Positions 3,221-17,548 are shown, numbered from the stretch's first letter. The stretch is 64,000 nt of DNA from Bacillota bacterium (GCA_050952125.1 JBMNKK010000001.1:117972-181971); one strand, 5' to 3'. Made by a program: numbers and translations. The notes: generated by a model from the sequence alone, not told the origin.

Positions 3221-3423
3221 ATCCGTCTTGCACTTCCCATACAACACACATTTGCCTCCCACAGCCCACCCCGGAGTCTCTCAATTGCGCCATACTCAGT
3301 AGATTCTGTGATTAGTTGCACTGCACGAAAGGAAAAAGAGGGATCTCACAGTTTTCGTAGAACCCACAGAAGGTTGTGATATGTGGGATACAACATGCAT
3401 GTTCTCGGAAGGAGGCCCCTACA

Positions 3424-4605
3424 ATGCTGCCGGAAAACGTCAAGACAACACTCCGGGAGGAACTGGAAAACCTTAGGCCTGATTTTGTCGCGATGGCTAA
3501 GGAGATGTGGGACAACCCCGAACACGCGCTCCGCGAGTTCAAGGCTGCCAATCTCATCTGCGACACTCTGGCCAAGGCCGGCTTCAAAGTCGAAAAGCCG
3601 GTCGGCGGGCTTGAGACAGCCTTTATCGCCTCGCACGGCGACGAGGACTCTCCCCGGGTCGCCCTGTTGGCGGAGTACGATGCCACACCCGGTTTCGGAC
3701 ACGCTTGCGGCCATAACCTCATCGCCTCTACCGCGGTCGCTGCGGCTAGAGCGCTCGCCAAGATGGGACACCCCGGACAACTGCTCGTTGTAGGATGCCC
3801 GGGAGAGGAAGGCGGCGGAGGCAAGATATTCCTCACAGAGAGCGGCTGCTTCGACGGAATTGACGCAGCCATATACCTCCACCCCTTCTATCTGACCAGG
3901 ATTGGCGGCCGTACTGCTGCGACGATAAACGTGGAACTTAAGTTCACGGGGCGCCCGGCTCATGCCGGAAGGGCGCCTCACACAGGCATCAACGCTCTAG
4001 CTGCGCTTACGGGCACATTCACGCTGCTAGGCCTTCTTAACCAGCAGCTCCCCCCTGACATCCGCTACAACTGGGTAGTGAGCGAAGGTGGGCGAGGCAC
4101 AGGAATAGTACCGGATATCGCTGCAGCCAAAGTAGGTCTCAGAGGGTCATCACACAGACAGGTAGAGTCGCTCTTCAAACACCTTGAAAACTGCGCCAAG
4201 GGAGCATCCATCGCGACCGGCGCGGAGCTCGAGATTAAGAAGGGACTTTCCTATATGCCGCGGCTCACAAACCCCGTCATCGCCAAGGTGATGGAGGATT
4301 ACCTCAAGGAAGCCGGTTTCGAGTGCGATCCCATGCCCGAGCAGGAGTTCGGTAGCACGGACGTGGGTCACGTCAGCATGCGCGTCCCTACGGTTGAAGG
4401 TTACGTCCAGATCTGCGATCGCGACATCCCCAACCACACCAAAGGCTTTGAGGAGGCCGCCAACTCCGAGAGAGGGTTTGAGGCCATGCTCAAAGGCGCG
4501 TGGGCTCTCGCCTGCACGGCGCTGACACTCTTGACCGACGCTTCGCTGGTAGAAGGTGCGTGGGAGAAACAGCGCGAGGGGGTGAAAGCGCGAGAATCCG
4601 AGTGA
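3424..4605 (+). CDS. M20D-family amidohydrolase (N-acyl-amino-acid / hippurate hydrolase-like), M20-1
   Basis: Contains the GHACGHN metal-binding motif typical of M20D amidohydrolases. Start refined to the ATG at 3424, preceded by GGAAGGAGG. The ORF track extends it to 3376. Confidence 0.8.
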   Translation: MLPENVKTTLREELENLRPDFVAMAKEMWDNPEHALREFKAANLICDTLAKAGFKVEKPVGGLETAFIASHGDEDSPRVALLAEYDATPGFGHACGHNLIASTAVAAARALAKMGHPGQLLVVGCPGEEGGGGKIFLTESGCFDGIDAAIYLHPFYLTRIGGRTAATINVELKFTGRPAHAGRAPHTGINALAALTGTFTLLGLLNQQLPPDIRYNWVVSEGGRGTGIVPDIAAAKVGLRGSSHRQVESLFKHLENCAKGASIATGAELEIKKGLSYMPRLTNPVIAKVMEDYLKEAGFECDPMPEQEFGSTDVGHVSMRVPTVEGYVQICDRDIPNHTKGFEEAANSERGFEAMLKGAWALACTALTLLTDASLVEGAWEKQREGVKARESE

Positions 4606-4646
4606 TCCTTAAGAGTTCTTAGGCTGGACAACAAGGAGGGAAAACG

Positions 4647-5405
4647 GTGACTAAGGGTGTTGCTTCACAGTTCGTGTTTCTGGTTCTGTTCGCACTAGCG
4701 ATCCTGTACTACCTGAACGAAGCCAAGAAGGGAAGGAAGATGTGGCTTCGCAAAATCCCTGCTCTTGACGCCGTTGAGGAAGCTATCGGCAGGGCGGCGG
4801 AAATGGGTAAGCCGGTTCTCTACACACCGGGTCTTGACGCCGTCGAGTTTCCGGAGACCCTGGCAGGACTATCGTTCCTCCCGTACGTGGCTAAGCTGAC
4901 GGCTCGCTACAACGTGCGGTTGATCGAGGCTCAGAGAGACCAGGTCGTTTATTCCATTGCAGAAGAAAGCATCCGGCAGACTTACGCTTCAGAAGGAAAG
5001 ATCGATCAGTTCAACCCCACCGACGTAAGGGTCTTCCCGGATAGATACGGATACATATCCGGAATGATCGGCATCATCGACCAAGAGGAAGTAGCCGTAA
5101 ACCTCATGGTGGGGCTCTTCCGTGCTGAAGCCCTCATCTTCGCAGAGGCAGGCAACAGGGCTGGCGCTCTGCAGATCGCGGCGTCAGCCGACCAGCAGAT
5201 CCCCTTCTTCGTGGCCGTTTGCGACTACACCATGATCGGTGAAGAGCTTTATGCGGCAAGCGCCTACGTAAGCGATGACGAGCGGCAGAAGGGAATCATC
5301 CTCGCTCAGGACCTCGGCAAATGGCTCATCTCAGGGATCATCCTGATCGGCGCGGTCCTCGAAACATGCGGGGTCGATAGCTTCACTAACCTCATGAAGA
5401 TGTAG
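4647..5405 (+). CDS. Uncharacterised bitopic membrane protein A1 (paralog of 13687..14460)
   Basis: N- and C-terminal TM helices flank a roughly 200 aa soluble domain. Shares QIPFFVAVCDY and KIPALDAVEEAIGRA motifs with A2. GTG start, RBS AAGGAGGG. Confidence 0.75.
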   Translation: MTKGVASQFVFLVLFALAILYYLNEAKKGRKMWLRKIPALDAVEEAIGRAAEMGKPVLYTPGLDAVEFPETLAGLSFLPYVAKLTARYNVRLIEAQRDQVVYSIAEESIRQTYASEGKIDQFNPTDVRVFPDRYGYISGMIGIIDQEEVAVNLMVGLFRAEALIFAEAGNRAGALQIAASADQQIPFFVAVCDYTMIGEELYAASAYVSDDERQKGIILAQDLGKWLISGIILIGAVLETCGVDSFTNLMKM

Positions 5406-5424
5406 GCGAAAGGAGGAGTCGACG

Positions 5425-6042
5425 TTGAAAACACAAGGCCCAGTAGCAGTAACTTTCGTCTCAGGGCTTATCATGCTGATTAGTTTCTACTTCGGCATTC
5501 TAGGCCAATGGGAGAGCGCGCTTTATTCCTGGTCGGTAATCGTCGCGGGATTTGCAGCCCTCCTCGGTATCGCCAACCTCACGAAGTTGCACGTTACCAG
5601 GATTCAGCGGCGCAAAGAGTCATTCCTGAGCTACACGCTCCTAGTCGTCATGTGGGGAATCATGATTTATGGGTTCATCAATACTCAGAACGCTCCCCTC
5701 TACACTGACCTGTTCGAGGCACTCTACACGCCCGTCGGCACAACAACCATGTCGCTTCTGGCGTTCTTCATCTTTTCAGCCGCGTACCGAGCCTTCAGGC
5801 CCAGATCCCTAGAAGCCACGATAATGCTCATCTGTAGCTTCGTGACTATTCTCGGCAGGGCCCCCGCGGGCGCTCTTATCTGGAAAGGGTTCCCTGTTGT
5901 CACTGAGTGGCTGGTATCGGTACCCGCCAACGCGGGCTCAAGGGGCATCATGCTGGCCGCGGCCCTGGGAGGCGTCTCAATGTCTCTTAGGGTGCTCTTG
6001 GGCATAGAACGCAGACACTTCGGCGGAGGTTCCGCCAGCTAG
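5425..6042 (+). CDS. Uncharacterised polytopic membrane protein B1 (paralog of 14478..15095)
   Basis: 205 aa with about 6 TM segments. Conserved C-terminal RGIMLAAALGGVSMSLRVLLG matches RGIMIGSAIGAVSVSLRVILG in B2. TTG start, RBS AGGAGG. Confidence 0.7.
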   Translation: MKTQGPVAVTFVSGLIMLISFYFGILGQWESALYSWSVIVAGFAALLGIANLTKLHVTRIQRRKESFLSYTLLVVMWGIMIYGFINTQNAPLYTDLFEALYTPVGTTTMSLLAFFIFSAAYRAFRPRSLEATIMLICSFVTILGRAPAGALIWKGFPVVTEWLVSVPANAGSRGIMLAAALGGVSMSLRVLLGIERRHFGGGSAS

Positions 6043-6061
6043 GTTAAGGAGGGAGACCGCA

Positions 6062-6889
6062 GTGAAAAAAGGGAGCAACATTGACAGGATCGTGATGTAC
6101 CTGCTCCTGTTCGTCGTGATGGCGGTACCGCTTATAAAGCCCATGGGGATCCCCCTTGAGATAAGCCCGGAAACCCAGGCCGCCTACGACTTCATCGAGT
6201 CAATACCTGAAGGCTCGACGGTTTGGATCGACTTTGCCTACCGGCCTGCTACAGCGCCTGAAAGCCTGTCGCAGTCGTATGCCGTCTGCCATCAGCTATT
6301 CAAAAAGAACTTCAAGGTAATCTTCTTTTACTGCATACCTGAAGCGAGCCCCTACGTTGTTGAGGTAACGGAGAAACTCTCCAAGGAGTACAACAAGGAG
6401 TACGGCGTAGACTACGTCAACTTGGGATACAAGCCCAACCTTGACTCCGCCCTAAACGGCATGGCGAGAAACTTCGCCGAGATTTTCCCCACCGATGTGG
6501 ATGGCACGCCAACATCGAGCCTGCCCATTACCAAGAACATCAAGGGCGTAGATGACATAGCCATGTTCTTTGTGGTCCACACCGGCTCTCCGGGAGTAGA
6601 CAGCTACTTCCAGCAAATCGAGGGGCAGTTCAAGAAGCCTATTGTTGCTTCAATGACGGCCATCAACGGCCCGACTCTGTATCCCCGTTTCGAAGCCGGT
6701 CAGCTGAAGGGCATGATCGTCGGCCTTAGAGGCTCTGCCGAGTACGAGCTCTTGGTCAAGGAACCTGGCAGCGCCATCTCCGGAATGGACGCGCAGTCGC
6801 TTGGACACCTGCTCATCGCGGCATCCATCGTAATCGGAACCATTCAGTTCCTAGTCAAGAAGAGCAAGGGAGGTGAAGCGGATGCCTAA
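6062..6889 (+). CDS. Uncharacterised bitopic membrane protein C1 (paralog of 15088..15936)
   Basis: N-terminal TM, soluble domain, C-terminal TM. SSLPITKNIKG / SSLPIMKGING conserved with C2. GTG start, RBS AAGGAGGGAG. Confidence 0.7.
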   Translation: MKKGSNIDRIVMYLLLFVVMAVPLIKPMGIPLEISPETQAAYDFIESIPEGSTVWIDFAYRPATAPESLSQSYAVCHQLFKKNFKVIFFYCIPEASPYVVEVTEKLSKEYNKEYGVDYVNLGYKPNLDSALNGMARNFAEIFPTDVDGTPTSSLPITKNIKGVDDIAMFFVVHTGSPGVDSYFQQIEGQFKKPIVASMTAINGPTLYPRFEAGQLKGMIVGLRGSAEYELLVKEPGSAISGMDAQSLGHLLIAASIVIGTIQFLVKKSKGGEADA

Positions 6890-7487
6890 GGGACTTATCC
6901 TGGCGTCCGGCGTGTTCCTCACTCTGGCGGTGTGGAGCTTCCTATGGAAGATCAACCCCGTATACCGGTTTGCAGAGCACGTGTTTGTAGGCTTTGGCGC
7001 CGCGCACTTTGCCGTAGTGGTTTACCACGGAACCATCAAGCCTAACCTGTTGGCTCCGCTTAAGGAAGGGAACCTGCTCCTTATCATCCCGGGCATTCTA
7101 GGGCTTCTATACCTTATGAGGCTCTCTCCGAAAACTGCCTGGCTCAGCCGGTACCCTATGGCCCTTAACATGGGCGTCGCTGCAGGCGTCGGCATCAGGA
7201 GCGTTCTCCAGGGAACCTTGTTCCCGCAGATGCTGTCCATGTTCCAGCCCATGACCGACATAAACCAGGTCATCACAGTGGTGGGCGTCCTCTCCACCAT
7301 CTTCTACTTCTTCTTTGGATTCGAGGCCAAAGGCCCCGCAAAGGGAGTAAAGCATGTAGGACGCATAGTCATGATGATCTTCTTCGGAGCCATCTTCGGA
7401 AACACAGTCATGTCAAGGTTGTCTTACCTTCTTGGCAGGCTGCAGTTCATCTTTGGCGACGTCCTTCACTGGATACCCGGAACCTAG
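6873..7487 (+). CDS. Uncharacterised polytopic membrane protein D1 (paralog of 15938..16561)
   Basis: 204 aa with multiple TM helices. C-terminal LGRLQFIFGD matches IGRLQFLFGE in D2. Overlaps C1 by 17 nt, consistent with translational coupling. Confidence 0.7.
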   Translation: MKRMPKGLILASGVFLTLAVWSFLWKINPVYRFAEHVFVGFGAAHFAVVVYHGTIKPNLLAPLKEGNLLLIIPGILGLLYLMRLSPKTAWLSRYPMALNMGVAAGVGIRSVLQGTLFPQMLSMFQPMTDINQVITVVGVLSTIFYFFFGFEAKGPAKGVKHVGRIVMMIFFGAIFGNTVMSRLSYLLGRLQFIFGDVLHWIPGT

Positions 7488-7522
7488 AACTTAAGTTACG
7501 TCTATGCCAAGGGGTTGAACCT

Positions 7523-8257
7523 ATGAGAATCGATACCGAGAAATGCCGAGGCTGCGGTCTGTGCGTGCCGTTCTGTCCCGCCAACGCCATTACTTTGGCC
7601 GACAGAAAGGCTCGTATTGACGAGGATAAGTGCCTCGAGTGCGGCACGTGCCTGAGGAAAGGGGTTGTCCGCTGCCCCACGGGAGCTTTCTACGAGCCCC
7701 CGGGAGTCTATGAGCGTCCCCGCTCTATCAGGAAGTTCCTCAGCGATCCCGCCACGAACCACAAGGAGACCGGTATCCCCGGGCGCGGGACAGAGGAAGT
7801 TAAGACCAACGACGTGACCGGCCGTGTGAAGCGCGGCTTCGTCGGCATCGGGCTCGAGGTCGGGCGCCCTGCTCTGGGAGCCGATCTCACCGATATAGAG
7901 AAACTCACCATGAGCCTGGCCAAGTCGGGGCTCAACATCCACTGGGAGGAGGACAATCCGGTCACCCACCTGTTCAAGGATCCTGCGACCGGTACCCTGC
8001 TGGATGAATGCAAGGATCAGCGGGTTGTCTCGGCGATCATCGAGTTCGCTTTGCCCGTGAACGAACTCAGGCCTTGTCTGGACACGATCAAGGCAGCATC
8101 CAAAGAGATAAGCACAGTGTTCTCACTGTTTGTGATATCGAGGATGGACGAAGACGGGAACACCCCCCTTGTCTCCGAGCTGGAGGCATGGGGATACGAC
8201 GTGCGCCCCAATTCCAAGGTAAACTTGGGATTGGGCAGGCCACTGAGGGAGGAGTGA
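7523..8257 (+). CDS. 2x[4Fe-4S] ferredoxin-domain protein with a C-terminal domain of unknown function, Fd1 (paralog of 11360..12118)
   Basis: CRGCGLCVPFCP and CLECGTCLRKGVVRCP cluster motifs. Conserved TGIPGRGTEEVKTNDVTGR is shared with Fd2. Confidence 0.75.
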   Translation: MRIDTEKCRGCGLCVPFCPANAITLADRKARIDEDKCLECGTCLRKGVVRCPTGAFYEPPGVYERPRSIRKFLSDPATNHKETGIPGRGTEEVKTNDVTGRVKRGFVGIGLEVGRPALGADLTDIEKLTMSLAKSGLNIHWEEDNPVTHLFKDPATGTLLDECKDQRVVSAIIEFALPVNELRPCLDTIKAASKEISTVFSLFVISRMDEDGNTPLVSELEAWGYDVRPNSKVNLGLGRPLREE

Positions 8258-8264
8258 CGACGCC

Positions 8265-8918
8265 TTGACACACTCACTGCATAGGCGCGGGGCGCCGGAA
8301 ACACTGGAAAACGATTACGTGCTCTTGGTGACGCCCGCCGTTGGGATAAACCACGTAGGGTCTAAGGAGAAACTCCAGAAGATATTGGACGTGATCTGGG
8401 AAATAGGTCCGACCAACATCGGCTCCTACGAGGTAGGCACCATTTTCACAGGTTCAACCCTTGAAGAGATTAAGACAAGTCTCAGCGATAAACCGAGAGT
8501 ACGCTGCGCATTTGACAGCTGCGAGAAGATCACCGAGGTGGTCAGGAGAATCAAAGAGATGGATCTCGGCCTCTCGGTTACCGTGAGCGGCCTCACCGAC
8601 AAGGTGCAGGAAATGAGCAAGCGCCTGGGAATCGAGCCCAACTCGGTGAACCTCTCGCTGGGCATCATGGGAAGAACCGACCTTCTTCCTCCCGAATGGG
8701 TACTTGAGATCACCACAATGTGCGGGCACGGCATGATATCCGCATCTCTTGTGGAAAAGATGGTATCCGATCTCAAGAAGGGCAGAATCACACTGGACAA
8801 AGCGGCTGAAACACTGGCTAGGCCCTGTGTCTGTGGGATATTCAACGTAGCCAGAGCGAAAAAACTCCTCGCCGACCGCCTTGCCTGTGATGAGTCCTGC
8901 AAGGCGGAAGGAGAGTGA
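8265..8918 (+). CDS. Conserved Cys-rich protein of unknown function E1 (paralog of 10698..11315)
   Basis: MTHSLHR N-terminus. ITTMCGHGMIS and CVCGIFN motifs are conserved with E2. TTG start, RBS GAGGGAGGAG. Confidence 0.7.
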   Translation: MTHSLHRRGAPETLENDYVLLVTPAVGINHVGSKEKLQKILDVIWEIGPTNIGSYEVGTIFTGSTLEEIKTSLSDKPRVRCAFDSCEKITEVVRRIKEMDLGLSVTVSGLTDKVQEMSKRLGIEPNSVNLSLGIMGRTDLLPPEWVLEITTMCGHGMISASLVEKMVSDLKKGRITLDKAAETLARPCVCGIFNVARAKKLLADRLACDESCKAEGE

Positions 8919-8922
8919 CGCG

Positions 8923-10545
8923 GTGAATCGTTCAATGACTACAGTGGGCGGCCTATCAACGGCCGCCCACCCTTTGGCAGCAATGGCGGGGGCATGGGTT
9001 CAGGCCCGCGGGGGCAACGCGGTTGACGCGGCTGTAGCTACGGCCTTCGCGCTCCCGGTCGTCGAACCGATGATGTCGGGCGTCCTCGGGCGCGGCTGCT
9101 ACGTGTACGCACCGGTTGACGGCGACCCGGTTACCGTCGACTTCTACTCGGCAGCGCCCGGAAAAGCCACTCCCGATATGTTTAGGTGGATAGAATCTCC
9201 CACCCAGGGAGGCTACCGCTTCTACACTGAAGGCGACCTCAATACGACCGGCCATCTATCGGTTACGGCAAGCGGGTTCTCTCACGCTATGGCCGATCTC
9301 CTGGCCAAGCACGGGACAATGACGTTGGAAGATGTCCTTGCTCCGGCCGCAGACTTTGCCGAAAGAGGGTTTAAGGTATCTCCCAGGCTCCACAGGAACC
9401 TGGTACGCCTGAAGGCGAGACTGGACCAGCACCCCAATGAAGCTATGTCAAAGGTCTGGTTCCCGGAAGGTCAAGTCCCCCCTATCGGCGCAACCGTGAA
9501 ACAGCCTGACCTTGCCCGTACGCTCAGGCTTATCGGGCGCGAGGGGCCGGACGCGGTCTCTACAGGCGAGGTCGCTCAGGCAATCCTGGCCGATGTGAAA
9601 GGACACGGAGGCATTCTGTCGTCAGAAGACATTGAAGATCCGTGGAGATGGGTGGTCAAGAAGAGAACTCCTGTGGCAGGGATCTACAGGGACTGCGAAG
9701 TGCTTGGAGCGGCACCTTCCACTTCGGGAGGCACTACCGTTCTGGAGATCCTCAACATGCTGGAAACTCAGGAGCTCTGCCCCAAGAACAGGATGAGCGA
9801 GGCGCACCTAAGGGCTCTTGTCGGTGCCATGGTAAGAGCGTTTGCCGACAGGGCGTCATACTCGTGGGATCCGGCTTTTGACGAGATCCCTGTGGATACT
9901 CTCATATCAAAAGAGTACGCCGCGAGGAAGATGAAGGAGCCTGTGGCCCCGTTCAAAGCCGCCGAGGATCGAGAATCTCACACCTCTCACCACTCGCATG
10001 TTGATGCTGCCGGCAATATGGTCGCCGTAACTCAGAGTCTCGGTGACGCCTTTGGAGCGGGAGCTATGGTGCCGGAATACGGACTAACGTACGACAACGC
10101 CATGAAGCTCTTTGACCCGAGGCCGGGACGGATGAACTCTATCACAGCCAACAAGAAGCCGCTCGGGAGCATGTCGCCGACCATCCTGAAGAAAGACGGC
10201 CGGCCGTTCATGTCCTTGGGCAGCCCTTCGGGCACGAGGATCATCAATGCTGTAGTTCAGGTCATATCCAACGTCGTAGACTTCGGTGATGACCTGCAGA
10301 AGGCGATCGACATGCCGCGAATCCACTGGTCGGGCGACGAGTTGGAGCTCGAAAACAGGATGCCCGTGGGCGTCCTGGAGACCCTCAAGAGCTTCGGCTT
10401 CTCTCCCATTGTTAAGGCAGCATGGGATGAGTGGTTTGGCGGCGTCAACGCTGTGATGGACCTTGGCCGCGGCATAAGAGCGGCGGGATCGGATCCGCGC
10501 CGAGAGGCCGGCGCTGCGGGATGGCATGTAATGACCCACTCGTGA
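8923..10545 (+). CDS. ggt: Gamma-glutamyltranspeptidase (Ntn hydrolase)
   Basis: 540 aa. GGT-like sequence including a T-S-H-H-S-H-V-D region resembling the autoprocessing site TTHFSVVD. Start refined to the GTG at 8923, 6 nt after GGAAGGAGAG. Confidence 0.8.
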   Translation: MNRSMTTVGGLSTAAHPLAAMAGAWVQARGGNAVDAAVATAFALPVVEPMMSGVLGRGCYVYAPVDGDPVTVDFYSAAPGKATPDMFRWIESPTQGGYRFYTEGDLNTTGHLSVTASGFSHAMADLLAKHGTMTLEDVLAPAADFAERGFKVSPRLHRNLVRLKARLDQHPNEAMSKVWFPEGQVPPIGATVKQPDLARTLRLIGREGPDAVSTGEVAQAILADVKGHGGILSSEDIEDPWRWVVKKRTPVAGIYRDCEVLGAAPSTSGGTTVLEILNMLETQELCPKNRMSEAHLRALVGAMVRAFADRASYSWDPAFDEIPVDTLISKEYAARKMKEPVAPFKAAEDRESHTSHHSHVDAAGNMVAVTQSLGDAFGAGAMVPEYGLTYDNAMKLFDPRPGRMNSITANKKPLGSMSPTILKKDGRPFMSLGSPSGTRIINAVVQVISNVVDFGDDLQKAIDMPRIHWSGDELELENRMPVGVLETLKSFGFSPIVKAAWDEWFGGVNAVMDLGRGIRAAGSDPRREAGAAGWHVMTHS

Positions 10546-10589
10546 GCGTTACGCCAAAGGGCAACTAGCGCCAAAATGCAGCTGCAAAG

Positions 10590-10617
10590 AACTGGCTCTC
10601 CTAAGGGAGAGCCAGTT
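10590..10617. terminator. Bidirectional terminator hairpin between convergent ggt and E2
   Basis: Perfect inverted repeat aactggctctcc-taag-ggagagccagtt. Confidence 0.55.
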
Positions 10618-10697
10618 CCGGATCTCAGCCGGCCATCATCAGCTGAGTAGAAGGACTGAAGCGCGTTCGATGGCATCCACCGAAGCTCGATGGACTT

Positions 10698-11315
10698 TTA
10701 TTCCTTTGCCATTTTGTTCAGGATCTTCTCTGCCCGTGCAGGGTTAAAGATGCCGCAGGGACAGAGCCGACCCAACCTCTTGGCTGCCTTTTCAGCGGTT
10801 GTACGTCCCTTCTTCACGTCTTCTGCAAGCTTCTCCACTATCGCCGCGGAGATCATGTGGTGACCGCACATCGTCGTGATAGCCAACACGTCCTCTGACG
10901 GGAGCAGCTCTTTCTTGCCCCATACCCCAAGCGAGAAGTTGATGGTATGCGGAACCACTCCCGCCTCGGCGCACGCCGGTATCACCTTGTCTAGAAGCCC
11001 GCTGATGATGACCGAGATCCCGAGGTCGGCCTCCTTCACCATCTTGAGAAACTTAACGACCTGCTCCTGTGAGGTAAAGGCTCCCCGGAGGCGCGATTTG
11101 TCTGAAATGTTCTTCCTAATCTCTTCTGGAGAGACCTCCAGGATATTGCCTGATTTCACATCTCCCCAGTTTATCGAGTCGCATGCCTCGGCGGCATCCA
11201 TGAACACTAGAGCCTTGTCTTTGATGTTCTTGTCGTTGACGCCTTGAGCCTGGTACATCAACCAAGCGTAATCTTCTTCCAAGAAGGGGCCGCTTCTATG
11301 TAGCGTGTGAGTCAT
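10698..11315 (-). CDS. Conserved Cys-rich protein of unknown function E2
   Basis: Homolog of E1, with MTHTLHRSG, ITTMCGHHMIS and CPCGIFN. ATG start with GGAGGG RBS. Confidence 0.7.
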   Translation of the reverse strand: MTHTLHRSGPFLEEDYAWLMYQAQGVNDKNIKDKALVFMDAAEACDSINWGDVKSGNILEVSPEEIRKNISDKSRLRGAFTSQEQVVKFLKMVKEADLGISVIISGLLDKVIPACAEAGVVPHTINFSLGVWGKKELLPSEDVLAITTMCGHHMISAAIVEKLAEDVKKGRTTAEKAAKRLGRLCPCGIFNPARAEKILNKMAKE

Positions 11316-11359
11316 CTCGAACCCTCCGTTTTCTTCATCTCTTGCTGAAATGAGCCAGT

Positions 11360-12118
11360 CTAGGGAACCAGAGGTCGCCCCAGCCCCACGTTGACCTTTC
11401 CTCTAATGGGAGTAACGCCGAATTTGTCCAGAACCTTGAGGCTCGGGTGATAGCCGTTTGCATCGGTTCTCAAGACTAGGCCCACCGAAAACACGGTGTC
11501 GACCTTATCCTCTACATCGCGAAGGGCCTGAAGCACGTCACCAAGCTTGGAGAGTTCGCACTTGCCCTCAACGATAATTGACAGAAGGTAGTGGTCTTTT
11601 ATCGAGGGATCCATGACGCCGGTCTCAATATCCAAAACCTGACCCAAGGGACTGTGCTCGGCGCTCTCCAGTTTCAGGCCAGCCTTCACCACAGCTTTGG
11701 CAACGGTCTCAACATCGGCCATCCGCACTCCCACGCCGGGCCTTCCCATGTCGATGGCGATGCCGGCTTCATCACGTCCAAACCTGCCGGTTACATCGTT
11801 GGTCTTTGCCTCTTCAGTGCCTCGTCCGGGCACTCCCGTTTCGGCAGTAGTCTCCGTCGGGTCGCTGAGGATATGGCGAAACATATCGTTGAAGGTCTCA
11901 AGAGGACCGGGAGACATGGCTTTCGTCGGGCATACGTCGTTACGCACGCAAACGTAGCAGTCGGTGCACTTATGCGGATCGACTAGAGCCAGCCCATCCT
12001 CTACCTCTATGGCTCCGACCGTACAGTACGGGACACAATTCCCGCACCCCACGCACTTTTCAGGGTCAATTATGATCAAAGGGTATCCCTCCAGCCGATA
12101 TTGGATTTTGTATACCAC
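11360..12118 (-). CDS. 2x[4Fe-4S] ferredoxin-domain protein Fd2
   Basis: CVGCGNCVPYCTVGA and CTDCYVCVRNDVCP cluster motifs. TGVPGRGTEEAKTNDVTGR matches Fd1. Confidence 0.75.
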   Translation of the reverse strand: MVYKIQYRLEGYPLIIIDPEKCVGCGNCVPYCTVGAIEVEDGLALVDPHKCTDCYVCVRNDVCPTKAMSPGPLETFNDMFRHILSDPTETTAETGVPGRGTEEAKTNDVTGRFGRDEAGIAIDMGRPGVGVRMADVETVAKAVVKAGLKLESAEHSPLGQVLDIETGVMDPSIKDHYLLSIIVEGKCELSKLGDVLQALRDVEDKVDTVFSVGLVLRTDANGYHPSLKVLDKFGVTPIRGKVNVGLGRPLVP

Positions 12119-12329
12119 ACAACAAGGATACTTTGCCAGTCACATAGGAAATTCCTTCTGAAATACGAGTCAAAATGAAGGAAAATCACATGCTTTTCTT
12201 GAAATGCATGTATGCAATGTACGTGGCATACACCATATCGCATTTCGTAGTTCACAGATAAGGAGGTGACGTTTGGAGCCTGTCAATACACCCGCTTGAG
12301 TTAGGTTCAGTAGAGGAGGTTTCAAGAGC

Positions 12330-13673
12330 GTGGAGTCAAAGCTCGCGAAGTACATCCGCGACAACCGCCAGAAGTTTATCGATGAGCTTAGGGAGTTTCT
12401 CCAGCAGCCAACGATAGCCGCGGAAGGGATCGGCGGCGAAGAAGGCGCCAGGCTGGTCGAGCAATACCTCGCGAAACGGAACGTCAAGACAAGGCGCCTG
12501 CCTAACCCCGGAAATCCGGTTATCTACGGTGAGGTTGAGGGCGAATCAGACAAGACGGTGCTGCTCTACTGTCATTACGATGTACAGCCGATTGGAAGCG
12601 AGAGCGACTGGCAGTATCCCCCGTTTGCGGCTACGCTGGTCGGTGACCGGTTGTGGGGACGCGGGAGCGGCGACCACAAAGGATGCCTTCTATCCCGCAT
12701 ACAGGCTTTGGAAGCAGTCATGGCAGTCTACGGAAAACCCGCGCCAACGGTCAAGTTCCTCCTTGAGGCCGACGAAGAGACCGGGAGCCCGTATCTGGCC
12801 AAAGTGATGGAGGAAAACCGCAATCTACTGAAGGCAGACGGTAGTCTGTACTCCGGCAGGTTTAAGGACCCGGAAGGCCGGCCGATGATAGCCGCGGGAG
12901 GTTCCGGCTCATGTAGGATCCGCCTGACCGCCAGCGGCGCCAACGTTAACCTGCACCCCATGAACGCCACCCTTGTTTCTAACCCAATCCTGAGGCTCAT
13001 CCGGGCCGTATCGCTCATAGTCGACGACAGCCAAAGGATAACGGTACCGGGAGTTAGAGAAGCCGTTCTGGAACCGACGAAGGAAGACCGGGAGGTACTT
13101 GAGAACTTCCCGCTTGACGAGGAAGGAATCAAGAAGTCTCTCGGAATCGACAGCTTCATCGCCAACTTGACGGGGCGCGAAGCCGTCATGCACCAATTCT
13201 TCGAGCCTCGTGTCATGGTAGCCGGTATCGAGACAAGTGCGGGAGAGCATCTAATCCCTTCGGTGCCCGCCAGCGCGAGTATTACCTTGGGCTTCAGCTT
13301 ATTTGTCGATCAAGAACCGGACACGGTCTTCGAACAGGTTCGCTCACACTTGATATCCCACGGATTCGGCGATCTCCGCATCGAATTGCTGGGTGGAAAG
13401 CCGCCGGCAAAGACTCCGATAGCAGATCCGCTTGTTCAAAGCCTAATCTCCGCTGCGAAGGCGACCTACGGACAGGATCCTGTAGTCTATCCCACGACCC
13501 TTGGCGCCGGCCCGTGGAGCCTCTTCATCAAGCAGAACGGGATACCCATGGCTTCAGATCCCGGCGTCGCTCACTCGGGATCCAATTACCACGCTCCGAA
13601 CGAAAATATCTATCTGAGCGACTACTTCCAGGGGCTGGAATGCATGGCAAGATTCCTGGTCTCGTACAAGTAA
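12330..13673 (+). CDS. M20A-family dipeptidase/metallo-hydrolase (M20-2)
   Basis: 447 aa. YCHYDVQP motif typical of M20 dipeptidases (PepV/ArgE/DapE superfamily). GTG start, RBS GAGGAGG. Confidence 0.75.
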   Translation: MESKLAKYIRDNRQKFIDELREFLQQPTIAAEGIGGEEGARLVEQYLAKRNVKTRRLPNPGNPVIYGEVEGESDKTVLLYCHYDVQPIGSESDWQYPPFAATLVGDRLWGRGSGDHKGCLLSRIQALEAVMAVYGKPAPTVKFLLEADEETGSPYLAKVMEENRNLLKADGSLYSGRFKDPEGRPMIAAGGSGSCRIRLTASGANVNLHPMNATLVSNPILRLIRAVSLIVDDSQRITVPGVREAVLEPTKEDREVLENFPLDEEGIKKSLGIDSFIANLTGREAVMHQFFEPRVMVAGIETSAGEHLIPSVPASASITLGFSLFVDQEPDTVFEQVRSHLISHGFGDLRIELLGGKPPAKTPIADPLVQSLISAAKATYGQDPVVYPTTLGAGPWSLFIKQNGIPMASDPGVAHSGSNYHAPNENIYLSDYFQGLECMARFLVSYK

Positions 13674-13686
13674 GGAGGTGTGCTAA

Positions 13687-14460
13687 GTGGTTGAAGGACG
13701 CGTAGCAAGCTTCATACTGCTGGTCATGACAGCAGTAGCCGTCTATCTCTCAGTGCAGAGAGCCCGGTCAGGTATACTCCCGGAACTTCGTAAAATCGCC
13801 GCGTTTGACGCTATAGAAGAGGCAGTCGGTAGAGCGACTGAGCTAGGTCGCCCGGTGCTCTTCACTCCGGGCAAGGGCGACATCACGGACATCGGCGGCC
13901 CTCAGGTCCTTGCAGGTTTGGACATGCTATCGTATGTTTCCCAGTTGACCGCTAGGTACAAGGCAGGACTCGTAGCGACCATTCCCGTGCCGACCGTTCA
14001 GCCTATCGCGGAAGACGTCATCCACACATCCTACATAAGAGAGGGGCAGTCAGACGCCTATAGCCCGGATATGGTCCGCTTTGTCTCCCCCGAGCAGATG
14101 GCGTACGCCACCGGTACAGCGGGCGTTGTCATGCGCGAACAGGTCGCAGCGACCTTCCTGGTAGGACCCTTCTACGGCGAGTCGCTGATCATTGCCGAAT
14201 CTGCGGCGCAGCTGGGAGCCATCCAGATAGCGGGAACCGCCAGGATGGTCCAGATCCCCTTCTTCGTCGGCGCTTGCGACTACGCCCTCATCGGCGAAGA
14301 GATGTACGCAACCAGCGCCTATCTGACAGGGGATCCTGTACAATTGGGCATTATCCATGGCCAGGATACCGTACGCGCCATCACGATCCTTCTCATCGTT
14401 ATCGGATCCCTTCTCACGACGGTTGGAGTAGATAGCCTGACAACACTCATCAGAATGTAA
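13687..14460 (+). CDS. Uncharacterised bitopic membrane protein A2
   Basis: Paralog of A1 (QIPFFVGACDY; KIAAFDAIEEAVGRA). Confidence 0.75.
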   Translation: MVEGRVASFILLVMTAVAVYLSVQRARSGILPELRKIAAFDAIEEAVGRATELGRPVLFTPGKGDITDIGGPQVLAGLDMLSYVSQLTARYKAGLVATIPVPTVQPIAEDVIHTSYIREGQSDAYSPDMVRFVSPEQMAYATGTAGVVMREQVAATFLVGPFYGESLIIAESAAQLGAIQIAGTARMVQIPFFVGACDYALIGEEMYATSAYLTGDPVQLGIIHGQDTVRAITILLIVIGSLLTTVGVDSLTTLIRM

Positions 14461-14477
14461 AAAGGTGGTGAAATGCC

Positions 14478-15095
14478 GTGCGAAGAGAAGTTCCGTTATT
14501 GGTTGGCGGATTGACAGGCTTCCTGTTTGTGGTCGAGTACTTCTTCAATGTTCCCTTCCTGAGTGAAACAGCCAAGGCAGTTCAAAGCTGGGTTGTCGTC
14601 ATATCAGCGTTCATGATGGGGCTGGGAGCTATCAACCTCCTCCGCATCCACTCCAGAAACCTGGTCAACCCCAGAAGGACAAGTAAGCTGAACTCAGTAC
14701 TCATGCTGGGCTCTCTCCTATGCATGTCTTTCACAGGTATCGTCCTTGGCCAAGACAGCCCTTTCTTCAAGACACTCTTCAGCAGCGTGTATGAACCACT
14801 AGGAGCAACAGCATTCGCGACGCTCATGTTCTATGCCGCCACTGTCGTCTTCAGATCGTTCAGGTTCAGAAATTTGGCCACCACACTCTTCATGGCTTCG
14901 GCCGCTCTCGTCATTTTCGGCCGCTCTCCGCTTGGAGAAGCATTGGTGCCGGTCGCTAAGACGCTGGCCGACTGGATCTTCAAGATCCCGAACCTCGCCG
15001 GACAGAGAGGTATCATGATAGGTTCGGCTATCGGCGCCGTCTCTGTCAGCCTCCGGGTGATCCTAGGAGTAGACCGCAAATATCTCGGTGAATAG
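14478..15095 (+). CDS. Uncharacterised polytopic membrane protein B2
   Basis: Paralog of B1. Confidence 0.7.
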   Translation: MRREVPLLVGGLTGFLFVVEYFFNVPFLSETAKAVQSWVVVISAFMMGLGAINLLRIHSRNLVNPRRTSKLNSVLMLGSLLCMSFTGIVLGQDSPFFKTLFSSVYEPLGATAFATLMFYAATVVFRSFRFRNLATTLFMASAALVIFGRSPLGEALVPVAKTLADWIFKIPNLAGQRGIMIGSAIGAVSVSLRVILGVDRKYLGE

Positions 15096-15936
15096 TGAGG
15101 TGAGAATCGTGGATTGGCTTAGGAATCTCGATAGACGGATCATCTATGCGATAGTGTTTCTTTCACTGCTATTGCCTTTAGCCTGGCCTATCGGTTCACC
15201 GGTCAGCGTTAGCACGTGGACCAGAGCGGTTTACGAAGCCATCGAAGGTCTCTCCCCTGGCGACACGATTCTGTTCGCCATGGATATCAGCGTTACGTCA
15301 TCAGCTGACGAGCTTCCTCAGGCAACAACGGTGCTCCGTCACCTGATGTCTCGTGACATCCGTGTTATTTTCGTAAACTTCGTCCCCACCGGCGCGCCGT
15401 ACACGGCTGACGCTATAGCTCAGTATGAGAAAGAAGGCAAGGTGTACGGTGAAGACTTCGCTCACCTGGGATACGTTGCAGGGCTCGAGTCAGGCATGGT
15501 TGCCTTCTTTGCCGATATGGCCGGCACGACTCCGACAGACGCACGGGGAAACAGGACATCTTCCCTGCCCATCATGAAGGGCATCAACAGCCTCCACGAT
15601 GTGGAACTCGTAGTCGCCAACGTGGGAGGGACTCCCGGAATCGCGGAATGGGTCAGGCAAGCCCACGTACCCTACAACAGCAAGCGGCTCTTGGTAAACG
15701 CGCTTGGCCCGCACTTTGGCCTCATTGAGCCCTACATCCAGTCCAAACAGGTCGTGGGTGTCCTTGCCGGTTCCAGGGGCGCGGCCGAGTATGAATCCCT
15801 CACGAAGATGCCCGGGCTGGGCGCCGCCATGATGGACTCACAGTCAATCGGGCTCATGTCCATTCTGGCCATCATGATCTTGGGCAACATCGTGCATTTC
15901 GTAGATAAACGGAAAGCAAAGGGAGGGACAAAGTGA
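15088..15936 (+). CDS. Uncharacterised bitopic membrane protein C2
   Basis: Paralog of C1. Overlaps B2 by 8 nt. Confidence 0.7.
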   Translation: MNSEVRIVDWLRNLDRRIIYAIVFLSLLLPLAWPIGSPVSVSTWTRAVYEAIEGLSPGDTILFAMDISVTSSADELPQATTVLRHLMSRDIRVIFVNFVPTGAPYTADAIAQYEKEGKVYGEDFAHLGYVAGLESGMVAFFADMAGTTPTDARGNRTSSLPIMKGINSLHDVELVVANVGGTPGIAEWVRQAHVPYNSKRLLVNALGPHFGLIEPYIQSKQVVGVLAGSRGAAEYESLTKMPGLGAAMMDSQSIGLMSILAIMILGNIVHFVDKRKAKGGTK

Positions 15937-15937
15937 C

Positions 15938-16561
15938 ATGGCTACTGACGTCAGCACTTGGATTGCCGCAATCGCTAGCCTCTGCATGCTGTCGCTCCTA
16001 CTAGGAGACAACCCGTTCTTCAGCGCAGCTGAACATATATACGTCGGGCTGGGTGCCGGTTACTACCTGGTCCTGGGGTTCCAGAATATCAAGAACATGG
16101 CGTGGGGACCGCTGGTCAGAGGTGAAGGCATCATCTACGTTGTTCCGCTGATCCTGGGACTCCTTGTCTACACTCGATACTTCAAATCGGTCAGCTACCT
16201 CAGCCGCATATCGGCTTCGATCGTGGTATGCATGGGAGCAGCCATCGGTCTCAGAGGCTCCATCGTCAGCGATTTCGCCAAGCAGATTGAATCGACTATC
16301 TCACTGCCGCTGAACTCCTTTGACAACTTAGTGGTTGTCGTCGGAACGGCCGCGACCCTCGGGTACTTCTACTTCACCAAACTGAAGTCGCCCGGCCTCG
16401 CAAAGGTTCAGAAAGCGGTAAGCGTGACAGGTCAATCGGTGATGATGGTAGCGCTGGGAGCCTTGTTTGCGAACAGCATGTTCACTTTTGCGGCGAGGCT
16501 GATAGGAAGGCTTCAGTTCCTCTTCGGAGAGTGGATTCACTTCGTCAAGCTTCCTTCTTAA
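15938..16561 (+). CDS. Uncharacterised polytopic membrane protein D2
   Basis: Paralog of D1. Confidence 0.7.
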   Translation: MATDVSTWIAAIASLCMLSLLLGDNPFFSAAEHIYVGLGAGYYLVLGFQNIKNMAWGPLVRGEGIIYVVPLILGLLVYTRYFKSVSYLSRISASIVVCMGAAIGLRGSIVSDFAKQIESTISLPLNSFDNLVVVVGTAATLGYFYFTKLKSPGLAKVQKAVSVTGQSVMMVALGALFANSMFTFAARLIGRLQFLFGEWIHFVKLPS

Positions 16562-16594
16562 CACCTAGCCGAAGCTGCAGACATGTTCAGGAGA

Positions 16595-16626
16595 AGGGGC
16601 GGGCTTAGAGCCCGTCCCTTTGCTAT
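16595..16626 (+). terminator. Rho-independent terminator after D2
   Basis: aggggcgggc-ttaga-gcccgtccct hairpin followed by ttgctat. Confidence 0.55.
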
Positions 16627-16718
16627 GCCAGCCGAGGAATCTGTGTGAAGAGCGTAGAACCCCTCCCTATTGACTCATTTACCGCCGCGTGCATTGAACT
16701 CTGAACGGAGGTATCGCC

Positions 16719-17543
16719 ATGTCTGACACATCAAAACTGCATACTGAAGTCGAGTCTCGCGCTACCGGGCGTTTCGAGGGCCGCGTTCCGGATCTCACAA
16801 GGCTTCTCGAACCTGCCGGCGGCGAGTGGGCCGTGGTGATTGACGATCTGGATGGCAAGGGAAGCCTCTCTTTTGACGCGGCATCCCCGTTTACCGCGGC
16901 GTCGGTCATCAAGATCCCTATAATGATGACGGCCTTTCATCAAGCCAGAGAGGGCAAGATCCGCCTCGATGACACCATAGTCCTCAGGAATGAGGATAAG
17001 GTTGGAGGCTCCGGGGTGCTCCGCGAGTTCCACGCGGGACTTTCGCTGACGCTGCTTGATGCCATACACATGATGATAGTCGTTAGCGACAACACCGGGA
17101 CAAACCTGACCATGGATGCCGTCGGACGGGAATCCGTGAACGAGTATGTTCTCGATAAAGGGTGCAAAAACACACGCCTGGAAGCCCACTTGATGCGTCC
17201 GAAACCCCAAGGGCCGTGGAACAAGATCACGGCTGAAGACATCGGGCTCCTCCTAAGAGGACTGGCCGACAGGACCATCGAGAACCCCGGCGACTGCGAT
17301 ACCATGATCGACATCATGAAAAGGCAGCAGTACAACCACAAACTGCCGAGGTTTCTACCGAAGGGCGTTGTGTGCGCCCACAAGACGGGAGAAGTAAGGG
17401 GCGTAACCCATGACGCGGGCATCGTGTATGCTCCGGATGCACGGTTCGTGATCGTGTGCCTGTCGCAAAAGCTGGAGGACGTTGACATCGGCAACCGCGT
17501 GATCGGCGAAGTCGCGAAGTGGGCCTACGGAGTGCTGAAATAG
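16719..17543 (+). CDS. Class-A beta-lactamase-fold serine hydrolase, no signal peptide
   Basis: S-x-x-K (AASVIKIP), SDN (VVSDNTG) and KTG (HKTGEV) motifs are present. No N-terminal secretion signal. Confidence 0.75.
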   Translation: MSDTSKLHTEVESRATGRFEGRVPDLTRLLEPAGGEWAVVIDDLDGKGSLSFDAASPFTAASVIKIPIMMTAFHQAREGKIRLDDTIVLRNEDKVGGSGVLREFHAGLSLTLLDAIHMMIVVSDNTGTNLTMDAVGRESVNEYVLDKGCKNTRLEAHLMRPKPQGPWNKITAEDIGLLLRGLADRTIENPGDCDTMIDIMKRQQYNHKLPRFLPKGVVCAHKTGEVRGVTHDAGIVYAPDARFVIVCLSQKLEDVDIGNRVIGEVAKWAYGVLK

Positions 17544-17548
17544 CGGCC

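What the first reader, a model, noticed from the sequence alone, without database searches (positions are those of the whole stretch)
3424..16561. Two paralogous copies of an uncharacterised seven-gene module: M20 peptidase, four membrane proteins, a ferredoxin-domain protein and a Cys-rich protein
Copy 1 is one tightly packed plus-strand operon: M20D amidohydrolase (3424-4605), A1, B1, C1, D1 (4647-7487), Fd1 (7523-8257), E1 (8265-8918), then ggt. Copy 2 is arranged divergently: E2 and Fd2 on the minus strand (10698-12118) facing M20-2, A2, B2, C2, D2 on the plus strand (12330-16561). All six non-peptidase proteins have clear one-to-one paralogs. Examples of conserved blocks: QIPFFVAVCDY / QIPFFVGACDY; RGIMLAAALGGVSMSLRVLLG / RGIMIGSAIGAVSVSLRVILG; LGRLQFIFGD / IGRLQFLFGE; TGIPGRGTEEVKTNDVTGR / TGVPGRGTEEAKTNDVTGR; ITTMCGHGMIS / ITTMCGHHMIS. 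The A-D quartet alternates bitopic proteins with large soluble domains (A, C) and small polytopic proteins (B, D). None carries motifs of a known transporter or respiratory-complex family, and there is no ATPase. I cannot assign any of the six to a characterised family. The fixed association with an M20 peptidase and a 2x[4Fe-4S] protein, and the location next to ggt, pepF and an NCS2 permease, suggest a membrane complex for uptake or redox-linked processing of peptide, gamma-glutamyl or N-acyl amino-acid substrates. That functional reading is inference.
Basis: partly seen in the sequence, partly recalled or inferred. Interest (0 to 1): 0.85.

Follow-up and report, generated by a model that had tools for sequence, protein, structure and literature searches.

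The report
Two unknown gene modules, joined twice
The "seven-gene module" is real but composite: an uncharacterised four-gene membrane module (probably a new kind of solute uptake system) sits twice beside an uncharacterised two-gene iron-sulfur module, and in other anaerobes that second module sits mostly beside known transporters.

Summary
Six of the seven gene types are true paralog pairs (30-48% identity, E 1e-30 to 1e-74). The two M20 peptidases are not paralogs.

The seven genes are not one module. They split into three parts:
- **A-B-C-D quartet.** It is autonomous and keeps a fixed order. A is Pfam DUF6754. It occurs in all 85 other loci examined (80 from one metagenome scan), often as 2-3 tandem copies, and 84 of the 85 lack Fd-E.
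- **Fd-E pair.** It is also autonomous. In 76 loci from anaerobic bacteria and archaea it occurs without A-D. 58 of 97 E genes lie within 5 kb of a TctABC transporter gene, and a few lie near TRAP or Opp genes.
- **A variable amide hydrolase.**

I found A-D and Fd-E joined in only one other genome (L166).

No A-D protein shows homology to TTT, TRAP, Opp or any solved structure. A has a Rossmann-like domain, inferred to be cytoplasmic. C has a domain inferred to be extracytoplasmic. E has a strictly conserved Cys3-His site and real-looking fusions to ferredoxin domains, so Fd-E is probably an iron-sulfur oxidoreductase.

Best reading: these are catabolic loci for amide or peptide-type solutes, made of a regulator, a hydrolase, a new type of uptake system and an Fe-S enzyme. 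All functions are inferred.

The parts
2485..3168 (+). GntR/FCD-family transcription regulator, probable regulator of copy 1
   Evidence: Pfam GntR 1e-20 and FCD 1e-30. GntR-FCD genes of the same cluster occur in 18 of the Fd-E loci and in A-D loci L166 and L167.
3424..4605 (+). M20D-type amidohydrolase (variable hydrolase slot, copy 1)
   Evidence: TIGR01891 amidohydrolase 3e-56, above its cut-off; Pfam Peptidase_M20 and M20_dimer. Start 3424 from the gene call.
4647..5405 (+). A1: DUF6754 protein with an N-terminal TM helix, a Rossmann-like domain and a C-terminal TM helix
5425..6042 (+). B1: polytopic membrane protein, about 6 TM segments
   Evidence: Hydropathy. Family found in 81 of 86 A loci, directly after A. 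Conserved motifs in alignment A4. No Pfam or PDB relative.
6062..6889 (+). C1: bitopic protein with a ~220-aa alpha/beta-type domain between two TM anchors
   Evidence: Hydropathy and alignment A5. The extracytoplasmic location is inferred from the positive-inside rule: basic residues lie before TM1 and after TM2. No Pfam or PDB relative.
6882..7487 (+). D1: polytopic membrane protein, about 6 TM segments
   Evidence: Hydropathy and alignment A6. Not homologous to B by hhalign, probability 6%. No PDB relative.
7523..8257 (+). Fd1: N-terminal 2x[4Fe-4S] ferredoxin domain plus a ~175-aa domain of unknown family
   Evidence: Pfam Fer4 families cover residues 1-58 only. Motifs CxxCxxCxxxCP and CxxCxxCx7CP are in the sequence. 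The C-terminal domain has 2502 homologs of uniform architecture. PDB matches cover residues 1-74 only.
8265..8918 (+). E1: Cys3-His protein, the proposed catalytic partner of Fd1
   Evidence: 1473 homologs, none with a Pfam domain. C153, G154, H155, C188, C190 and N194 are 100% conserved in 130 representatives at 31-46% identity. AF2 pLDDT 91. No PDB fold relative beyond a generic ferredoxin-like subdomain.
8923..10545 (+). Gamma-glutamyltransferase, lying between the two Fd-E pairs
   Evidence: Pfam G_glu_transpept 2e-112; TIGR00066 at its cut-off.
10698..11315 (-). E2: member of a second, old E subfamily (TMCGHH type)
   Evidence: 48% identical to E1. Relatives 55-61% identical to E2 lie beside E1-like genes in L021, L030, L032, L039, L042, L044 and L062.
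11360..12079 (-). Fd2: partner of E2 (the ORF could extend to 12118)
   Evidence: 41% identical to Fd1. Fer4 families at the N-terminus. Called as 239 aa.
12330..13673 (+). M20A dipeptidase-like hydrolase (variable hydrolase slot, copy 2)
   Evidence: Best NCBIfam match is PRK06446 (1e-94, 317.8 bits, below its 369-bit cut-off); Pfam Peptidase_M20 6e-28. Not a paralog of the 3424-4605 gene.
13687..14460 (+). A2: DUF6754 protein of copy 2
   Evidence: 45% identical to A1. Pfam DUF6754.
14478..15095 (+). B2
   Evidence: 30% identical to B1, E 1e-38.
15109..15936 (+). C2 (the ORF could start at 15088)
   Evidence: 33% identical to C1, E 6e-50. Start.
15938..16561 (+). D2
   Evidence: 32% identical to D1, E 1e-30.
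16719..17543 (+). Class A beta-lactamase-like serine hydrolase downstream of copy 2 (possible further amide hydrolase of the locus)
   Evidence: Pfam Beta-lactamase2 3e-62. L166 also has a beta-lactamase-family gene after its E gene.

Best explanation
The region holds two catabolic loci for imported amide or peptide-type solutes. Each is assembled from three separable parts.

(1) A variable cytoplasmic amide hydrolase: M20D in copy 1 and M20A in copy 2. GGT, a beta-lactamase-like hydrolase and PepF lie nearby.

(2) The A-B-C-D quartet, which I read as a previously undescribed ATP-independent solute uptake system. C would present a receptor-like domain outside the membrane, anchored by a TM helix at each end. 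B and D (about six TM segments each) would form the translocation path. A would hold a Rossmann-like domain on the cytoplasmic face, for regulation or coupling.

(3) The Fd-E pair, which I read as a two-subunit cytoplasmic iron-sulfur oxidoreductase. Fd would carry two [4Fe-4S] clusters as a wire. E would carry a Cys3-His metal or cluster site where chemistry is done on the imported compound or its hydrolysis product.

Shown here: the paralogy, the autonomy and fixed order of A-D, the autonomy of Fd-E, the association of Fd-E with TTT/TRAP loci, the conserved Cys3-His site, the Rossmann-like fold of A, and the absence of homology to known systems.

Inferred: every function, the membrane topology, and the idea that A-D fills the transporter slot.
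For: A-D is an autonomous unit. In 86 loci (80 from the metagenome scan, 5 fetched by look-up, plus the window), A was found in 86, B in 81, C in 74 and D in 65. The order is always A>B>C>D on one strand. Shortfalls are mostly at contig ends. The quartet often occurs as 2-3 tandem copies, as paralogous transporters do.

Fd-E is an autonomous unit. Fd lies immediately upstream of E in essentially all of 76 genome loci from Bacillota, Thermodesulfobacteriota, Chloroflexota, Synergistota and Bathyarchaeia. No A-D gene occurs in any of them.

Slot argument:
- 58 of 97 E genes have a Pfam-confirmed TctA, TctB or TctC gene within 5 kb. 23 are followed directly by TctC or TctB. Others sit by DctPQM or Opp permeases.
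- These loci carry GntR-FCD regulators and variable catabolic enzymes, the same layout as the window.
- In the window and in L166, A-D is the only set of membrane-protein genes inside the operons that carry Fd-E. An NCS2 permease gene lies separately, upstream of the GntR gene.

Bacillota A-D contexts are amino-acid or peptide catabolism. L167 is a hydroxyproline-type cluster (Pro_racemase, FAD/Fe-S dehydrogenase, DHDPS, AOR) in which A-D is the only membrane system. L084 has M24, DUF885, Pro_racemase and OCD. L082 has MlrC. L166 has M42, M28, asparaginase, creatininase and M20.

Topology. Basic residues follow TM1 of A, and WOR-3 homologs carry a long N-terminal extension that I read from its sequence as a signal peptide plus an extracellular domain. 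Basic residues precede TM1 and follow TM2 of C.

Fd-E as a redox enzyme:
- The Cys3-His site is 100% conserved.
- There are many other invariant polar residues.
- Real-looking fusions exist: E+Fd (P0506) and E+Fer4_11 (P0426).
- In Desulfobacterota loci a Pyr_redox_2 flavoprotein lies directly upstream.
- Every host lineage found is anaerobic.
Against: No transport or enzyme function has been shown for any of the six families.

A-D shows no homology to any transporter. hhalign probability is below 2% against TctA/B/C, DctP/Q/M and OppB/C. There are no Pfam or PDB hits.

Outside Bacillota the neighbours of A-D are heterogeneous and not clearly catabolic: glycosyltransferase, polysaccharide export/SLBB, ExbBD-TonB, a PF13941 ATPase, and PTS enzyme I with PGI.

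The slot argument rests on three A-D + Fd-E junctions in two related genomes.

31 of 97 E genes have no recognised transporter within 5 kb, so Fd-E is not strictly tied to transporters.

Confidence: 0.45

Rival explanations
1. A-D and Fd-E together form one membrane-bound redox complex. This is the reader's 'redox-linked processing', something like an Rnf- or transhydrogenase-style machine. Electrons from Fd/E would drive, or be driven by, ion or solute movement through B and D, with A as a nucleotide-binding domain.
Against: 80 metagenome A-D loci and 4 of the 5 loci fetched by look-up lack Fd-E. All 76 Fd-E loci lack A-D. Obligate partners would not be separated this way. A-D gives no Pfam Rnf/Nqr hit. 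B and D are not homologous to each other. In L166 a creatininase gene separates D from Fd.
Confidence: 0.1
2. A-D is not a transporter. It is a general membrane complex, for example for envelope or lipid homeostasis, signalling, or a membrane-anchored enzyme that uses the Rossmann-like domain of A. On this view its position next to hydrolases and Fd-E in this lineage is incidental.
For: Neighbours outside Bacillota are heterogeneous and include glycosyltransferase, polysaccharide export/SLBB, ExbBD-TonB and DUF4388 genes. Motifs in A are very strongly conserved (GRATEMGKPV, QxPFFxAxCDYxxIGEExYAA), which looks more like an active site than a regulatory domain. No transporter homology was detected.
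Against: Tandem arrays of 2-3 diverged quartets are typical of substrate-diversified uptake systems and odd for a housekeeping complex. In Bacillota the quartet sits repeatedly inside catabolic clusters that otherwise have no transporter.
Confidence: 0.25
3. Fd-E is a redox- or ligand-sensing regulator of the adjacent transporter, in the manner of PII-like proteins such as GlnK-AmtB or SbtB-SbtA, and not an enzyme.
Confidence: 0.15

Closest known systems
Tripartite tricarboxylate transporters (TctABC, TTT)
   Same: ATP-independent. Has an extracytoplasmic receptor component plus membrane subunits. In other anaerobes it occupies the same place beside Fd-E, GntR-FCD regulators and variable catabolic enzymes that A-D occupies here.
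   Different: No sequence or profile homology (hhalign < 2%; no Pfam TctA/B/C hit). There are four proteins, not three. The putative receptor C is anchored by TM helices at both ends instead of being a free or lipid-anchored binding protein. There is an extra Rossmann-like subunit A, inferred to be cytoplasmic. There are two ~6-TM subunits instead of a 12-TM TctA plus a 4-TM TctB.
TRAP transporters (DctPQM)
   Same: Binding-protein-dependent secondary transporter. Also found next to Fd-E in a few loci (L065, L069, L076).
   Different: No homology. Different subunit number and architecture.
Pfam DUF6754 (PF20539)
   Same: A1 and A2 are full-length members (E 4e-79).
   Different: The Pfam entry is a family of unknown function. 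It does not cover B, C or D. No paper in the searchable library mentions it.
Rnf/Nqr-type and transhydrogenase-type membrane redox complexes
   Same: Small ~6-TM subunit pairs. A ferredoxin-domain protein (Fd) with RnfB-like cluster motifs. A membrane-tethered Rossmann-like domain (A) with PntB dIII among its structural matches.
   Different: No Pfam hit to Rnf/Nqr or PNTB families. B and D are unrelated to each other. A-D and Fd-E are almost never found together.
Site-differentiated Fe-S enzymes with a dedicated 2x[4Fe-4S] ferredoxin subunit (this comparison rests on my own knowledge)
   Same: An electron-wire subunit beside a catalytic subunit with a strictly conserved three-Cys(+His) site. 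Restricted to anaerobes.
   Different: E has no detectable sequence or fold relative among solved structures. The cofactor and the reaction are unknown.

Membership tests
Pfam DUF6754 (PF20539) | Full-length match to the family HMM above the gathering score | tested here: met
   A1: 265.7 bits against a cut-off of 27, covering positions 12-256 of 257. A2 is annotated PF20539.
Peptidase M20 (two subfamilies) | Peptidase_M20 domain, with both genes in the same subfamily if they are paralogous module members | tested here: not met
   Both have Peptidase_M20. M20_1 is TIGR01891 (M20D). The best NCBIfam match of M20_2 is PRK06446 (M20A type), below that model's cut-off. Blastp between them gives E 0.07.
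TTT transporter (TctA/TctB/TctC) | Homology of the membrane and receptor subunits to PF01970, PF07331 and PF03401 | tested here: not met
   No Pfam hit at E <= 0.1. hhalign of the A, B, C and D profiles against TctA/B/C profiles built from the loci gives probability <= 1.8%.
TRAP transporter (DctP/Q/M) | Homology to PF03480, PF04290 and PF06808 | tested here: not met
   No Pfam hit. hhalign probability <= 1.4%.
ABC importer | An ABC ATPase gene and BPD_transp-type permeases in the module | tested here: not met
   No ABC_tran or BPD_transp hit in any of the module genes. hhalign against OppB/C <= 0.8%. None of the 85 other A-D loci has a constant ATPase partner.
Rnf/Nqr complex | RnfA/E-type paralogous 6-TM pair (PF02508) with RnfD and RnfG homologs | tested here: not met
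   No Pfam hit for B, C or D. B and D are not homologous to each other (hhalign probability 6%).
2x[4Fe-4S] bacterial-type ferredoxin domain | Two CxxCxxCx(n)CP cluster motifs and a Fer4 HMM match | tested here: met
   Fd1 has C8xxC11xxC14xxxC18P and C37xxC40xxC43x7C51P in its sequence. Fer4 1e-12 and Fer4_7 1e-8. Fd2 likewise. Actual cluster binding was not tested.
PII / ACT-like regulatory proteins | PII or ACT family HMM match, trimeric T-loop architecture or ACT ligand site | tested here: not met
PTS enzyme II | EIIA, EIIB or EIIC domain homology | tested here: not met
   No PTS Pfam hit in A-D. Considered only because enzyme I lies directly upstream of A in four metagenome loci.

The most novel reading that the evidence does not exclude
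A-B-C-D is a new class of ATP-independent solute uptake system. It would comprise a doubly anchored external receptor, two unrelated 6-TM subunits and a membrane-tethered cytoplasmic Rossmann-like subunit.

Fd-E is a new iron-sulfur oxidoreductase family that acts as a general companion of binding-protein-dependent secondary transporters (TTT, TRAP and A-D) in anaerobes. It would trap or activate the imported solute by a redox step as it enters, a kind of redox-coupled uptake.
Probability: 0.15. Interest if true: 0.85.

Novelty: categorically new. Interest (0 to 1): 0.62.

Why it matters
Both sub-modules are large families with no assigned function. The searches found at least 2655 A homologs, 1473 E homologs and 2502 Fd C-domain homologs.

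If A-D is an uptake system, it adds a transporter class that current annotation pipelines cannot recognise. That would affect how substrate use is inferred for uncultured Bacillota, WOR-3 and Planctomycetota.

If Fd-E is an enzyme, it is a missing and recurrent step in the TTT/TRAP-linked organic-acid and amino-acid catabolic loci of strict anaerobes, from gut Clostridia to Dehalococcoidia and Bathyarchaeia.

The work also gives a practical correction. The unit to study is not a seven-gene module but a four-gene unit and a two-gene unit. Cultured carriers of Fd-E are available for testing.

Tried and rejected
- **Internal duplication.** hhalign of B against D and of A against C gave no homology.
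- **A divergent TTT, TRAP or Opp system.** hhalign of A-D against profiles built from the loci gave all probabilities below 2%.
- **Profile searches of A, B, C, D and E against all PDB sequences.** Nothing was found. Fd matches only through its ferredoxin domain.
- **afdb50 fold search.** The library was not available.
- **Literature.** No paper mentions DUF6754 or PF20539. Two searches on TTT plus ferredoxin gave nothing relevant.
- **Promoter and terminator scan of 2200-17800.** No more sites than in shuffled sequence, so it is uninformative.
- **Apparent Fd-E fusions in L020 and L074.** Rejected as probable frameshift artefacts, because the linkers are Arg/Pro-rich junk. P0506 and P0426 look genuine.
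- **A constant extra partner of A-D.** None was found among 122 flanking genes.
- **NCBI's 'DUF362' name on some Fd homologs.** No Pfam DUF362 hit supports it.

Full report
**1. The observation**

Blastp between the two copies gives the following:

| Pair | Identity | E-value |
|---|---|---|
| A1/A2 | 45% | 2e-74 |
| B1/B2 | 30% | 1e-38 |
| C1/C2 | 33% | 6e-50 |
| D1/D2 | 32% | 1e-30 |
| Fd1/Fd2 | 41% | 4e-56 |
| E1/E2 | 48% | 3e-62 |

Six one-to-one paralog pairs are therefore real, and they are old. Hydropathy confirms that A and C have one TM segment at each end and that B and D are polytopic.

The two M20 genes are not paralogs. M20_1 is a TIGR01891/M20D amidohydrolase. M20_2 is a PRK06446-like M20A enzyme. 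Their blastp E-value is 0.07.

Identical contigs exist in several public read-set assemblies. NCBI holds the proteins as 'MAG: Bacillota bacterium'. The gene calls on those contigs refine some starts: D1 6882, ggt 8923, Fd2 ending at 12079, C2 15109.

**2. Database status of the six families**

- A is a full-length member of Pfam DUF6754 (4e-79).
- B, C, D and E have no Pfam or NCBIfam family.
- Fd matches only through an N-terminal 2x[4Fe-4S] domain of about 58 residues. The remaining ~175 residues are unassigned.
- Profile searches of A, B, C, D and E against all PDB sequences found nothing. Fd matched only through residues 1-74.
- No paper in the searchable library mentions DUF6754 or PF20539.

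**3. The seven genes are not one module**

A scan of one genome per species, using an E alignment, returned 76 loci. They come from Bacillota, Thermodesulfobacteriota, Chloroflexota, Synergistota and Bathyarchaeia. HMMs built from the window's pairs gave these results:

- Fd lies immediately upstream of E, on the same strand, in essentially every locus. There are often two to four pairs per 20 kb.
- None of A, B, C or D occurs in any of these loci, even at E <= 10.

In the opposite direction, a metagenome scan with an A alignment returned 80 loci. Together with 5 loci fetched by look-up and the window, this makes 86 loci:

- A was found in 86, B in 81, C in 74 and D in 65.
- The order is always A>B>C>D on one strand. 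Shortfalls are mostly at contig ends.
- The quartet frequently occurs as two or three tandem copies (L092, L097, L104, L113, L115, L153).
- Fd and E are absent from all of them.

A-D and Fd-E are therefore two autonomous conserved units.

I found one further junction, L166, from a related Bacillota MAG (GCA_040960625.1). Its A is 67% identical to A1. Its gene order is: GntR-FCD, M42, M28, asparaginase..., A-B-C-D, creatininase, Fd, E, beta-lactamase-family gene, M20.

**4. What accompanies Fd-E elsewhere**

I clustered the neighbouring genes and checked representatives against Pfam. The commonest neighbours are TctA (45 loci), TctC (41) and TctB (32).

- 58 of 97 E genes have a TTT gene within 5 kb.
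- 23 are followed directly by TctC or TctB.
- A few sit beside DctPQM or Opp permeases.
- 31 have no recognised transporter nearby.

The other neighbours are GntR-FCD, LysR and sigma-54 regulators, plus a changing set of catabolic enzymes. These include a DUF1932/NAD_binding_2 protein (often directly upstream of Fd), Ldh_2, DHDPS, PdxA, IlvD/Edd, xylose-isomerase-like TIM barrels, aldehyde:ferredoxin oxidoreductase, M28 and M29 peptidases, PrpD and Pyr_redox_2.

The window has the same layout, with A-D where the TTT genes usually are.

E1 and E2 belong to two old subfamilies. In at least seven loci from other genomes the two sit together. The two Fd-E pairs that face each other across ggt may therefore reflect a recurrent two-pair arrangement, and not simply one pair per A-D copy.

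**5. What Fd-E probably is**

- In 130 cluster representatives at only 31-46% identity to E1, C153, G154, H155, C188, C190 and N194 are 100% conserved. R7, H6 and H3 are 90-98% conserved.
- The C-terminal domain of Fd carries an equally conserved GRGTEExKTNDVTGR motif.
- A library-wide profile search found almost only ~210-aa stand-alone proteins. It also found two real-looking fusions: E+Fd (P0506) and E + a Fer4_11 polyferredoxin domain (P0426).
- Every host lineage found is anaerobic.

These results fit a two-subunit iron-sulfur oxidoreductase, with Fd as the electron wire and E as the catalytic subunit carrying a Cys3-His site. The substrate and the reaction are unknown. A PII-like regulatory role is possible but less well supported.

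**6. What A-D probably is**

- Charge distribution places the domain of A in the cytoplasm and the domain of C outside the membrane. So does the N-terminal extension of WOR-3 homologs, which I read from its sequence as a signal peptide plus an extracellular domain. This topology is an inference.
- A and C, and B and D, are not detectably related to each other.
- None of the four is related to TctA/B/C, DctP/Q/M or OppB/C (hhalign < 2%).

In Bacillota the quartet sits in amino-acid or peptide catabolic clusters that otherwise have no transporter:

- L167 is a hydroxyproline-type cluster: Pro_racemase, FAD/Fe-S dehydrogenase, DHDPS and AOR.
- L084 has M24, DUF885, Pro_racemase and OCD.
- L082 has MlrC.
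- L166 has many amidohydrolases.

Tandem diversified copies also fit an uptake system.

Outside Bacillota the neighbours are heterogeneous. They include glycosyltransferase, polysaccharide export, ExbBD-TonB, a PF13941 ATPase, and PTS enzyme I with PGI in four loci. No partner is constant. The transporter reading therefore remains an inference.

**7. Verdict**

The finding is real and concerns proteins that are uncharacterised, but its framing needs correction. It is a junction of two independent conserved units plus a variable hydrolase. It is not a seven-gene module and probably not a single complex.

My preferred reading (confidence about 0.45) is a pair of catabolic loci for amide or peptide-type solutes. 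In each, A-D is a new kind of ATP-independent uptake system and Fd-E is a new Fe-S oxidoreductase.

The rivals are:
- one redox-driven membrane complex (0.10);
- A-D as a non-transport membrane complex (0.25);
- Fd-E as a regulator (0.15).

Because none of the six families has a characterised relative, and the A-D architecture matches no known transporter class, I rate it categorically new in kind. Function is unproven, and I set interest at about 0.6.

Noticed in passing
window 23621-23895 (-): T-box leader (Rfam RF00230, 99 bits against a gathering score of 93). It lies upstream of a 320-aa ORF at 22624-23586 (-), which I did not identify.
   Followed up: no
window 45014-45087 (-): A single tRNA gene (Rfam RF00005, 60 bits).
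   Followed up: no
window 39092-40583 (-): Two adjacent ORFs (238 and 263 aa). One translation shows ABC-ATPase motifs. They cluster with similar genes in six of the Fd-E loci. Not checked against Pfam.
   Followed up: no
L092, L097, L104, L113, L115, L153 (whole loci): The A-B-C-D quartet occurs as two or three head-to-tail tandem copies in metagenome contigs, which suggests diversification into paralogous systems.
   Followed up: partly
L102 1880-2953; L126 6543-9500; L152 4318-7158; L158 8503-9582: In four metagenome loci PTS enzyme I (PEP-utilising enzyme, 587 aa), a bacterial-type phosphoglucose isomerase, or both, lie directly upstream of A on the same strand. This raises the possibility of a sugar-related role for some quartets.
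   Followed up: partly
L096, L097, L108, L142, L160 (upstream of A): A PF13941 'MutL'-type ATPase (~600 aa) and two unknown genes (~380 and ~110 aa) recur upstream of A in about six loci. Their meaning is unknown.
   Followed up: no
L021, L030, L032, L039, L042, L044, L062; window 8265-8918 and 10698-11315: E1-like (TMCGHG) and E2-like (TMCGHH) are two old subfamilies. They sit together in one locus in unrelated genomes, often flanking an Ldh_2 gene or a TTT operon. The two pairs in the window may be a conserved two-pair arrangement.
   Followed up: partly
proteins P0506 (516 aa) and P0426 (411 aa): Real-looking natural fusions of E with Fd (in the order E-Fd) and of E with a Fer4_11 polyferredoxin domain. 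The apparent Fd-E fusions in L020 7786-9258 and L074 9197-10573 look like frameshift artefacts.
   Followed up: yes
alignment A2 rows P0213, P0231, P0229, P0164 (WOR-3 and others): Many A homologs outside Bacillota are 340-420 aa. They carry an N-terminal extension that I read from its sequence as a signal peptide plus an extracellular Fn3-like domain, placed before the first TM helix. I used this to orient the protein in the membrane. The extension was not checked against Pfam.
   Followed up: partly
L081 11222-16317: In a WOR-3 contig the quartet is followed by a DUF4388/PatA_N gene, four unknown genes and an ExbB-ExbD-ExbD-TonB set. This context is unlike the Bacillota ones.
   Followed up: no
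L166 12546-12700: The Fd homolog next to A-D in the related MAG has its first cluster motif (CTGCGECVAYC) upstream of the first ATG/GTG/TTG of the ORF. Its true start is probably a non-standard codon or was mis-called.
   Followed up: partly
window 8881-8922: The longest ggt ORF starts at 8881 and overlaps the end of E1 (8918). The independent gene call starts ggt at 8923, five bases after the E1 stop, which implies tight co-transcription.
   Followed up: partly
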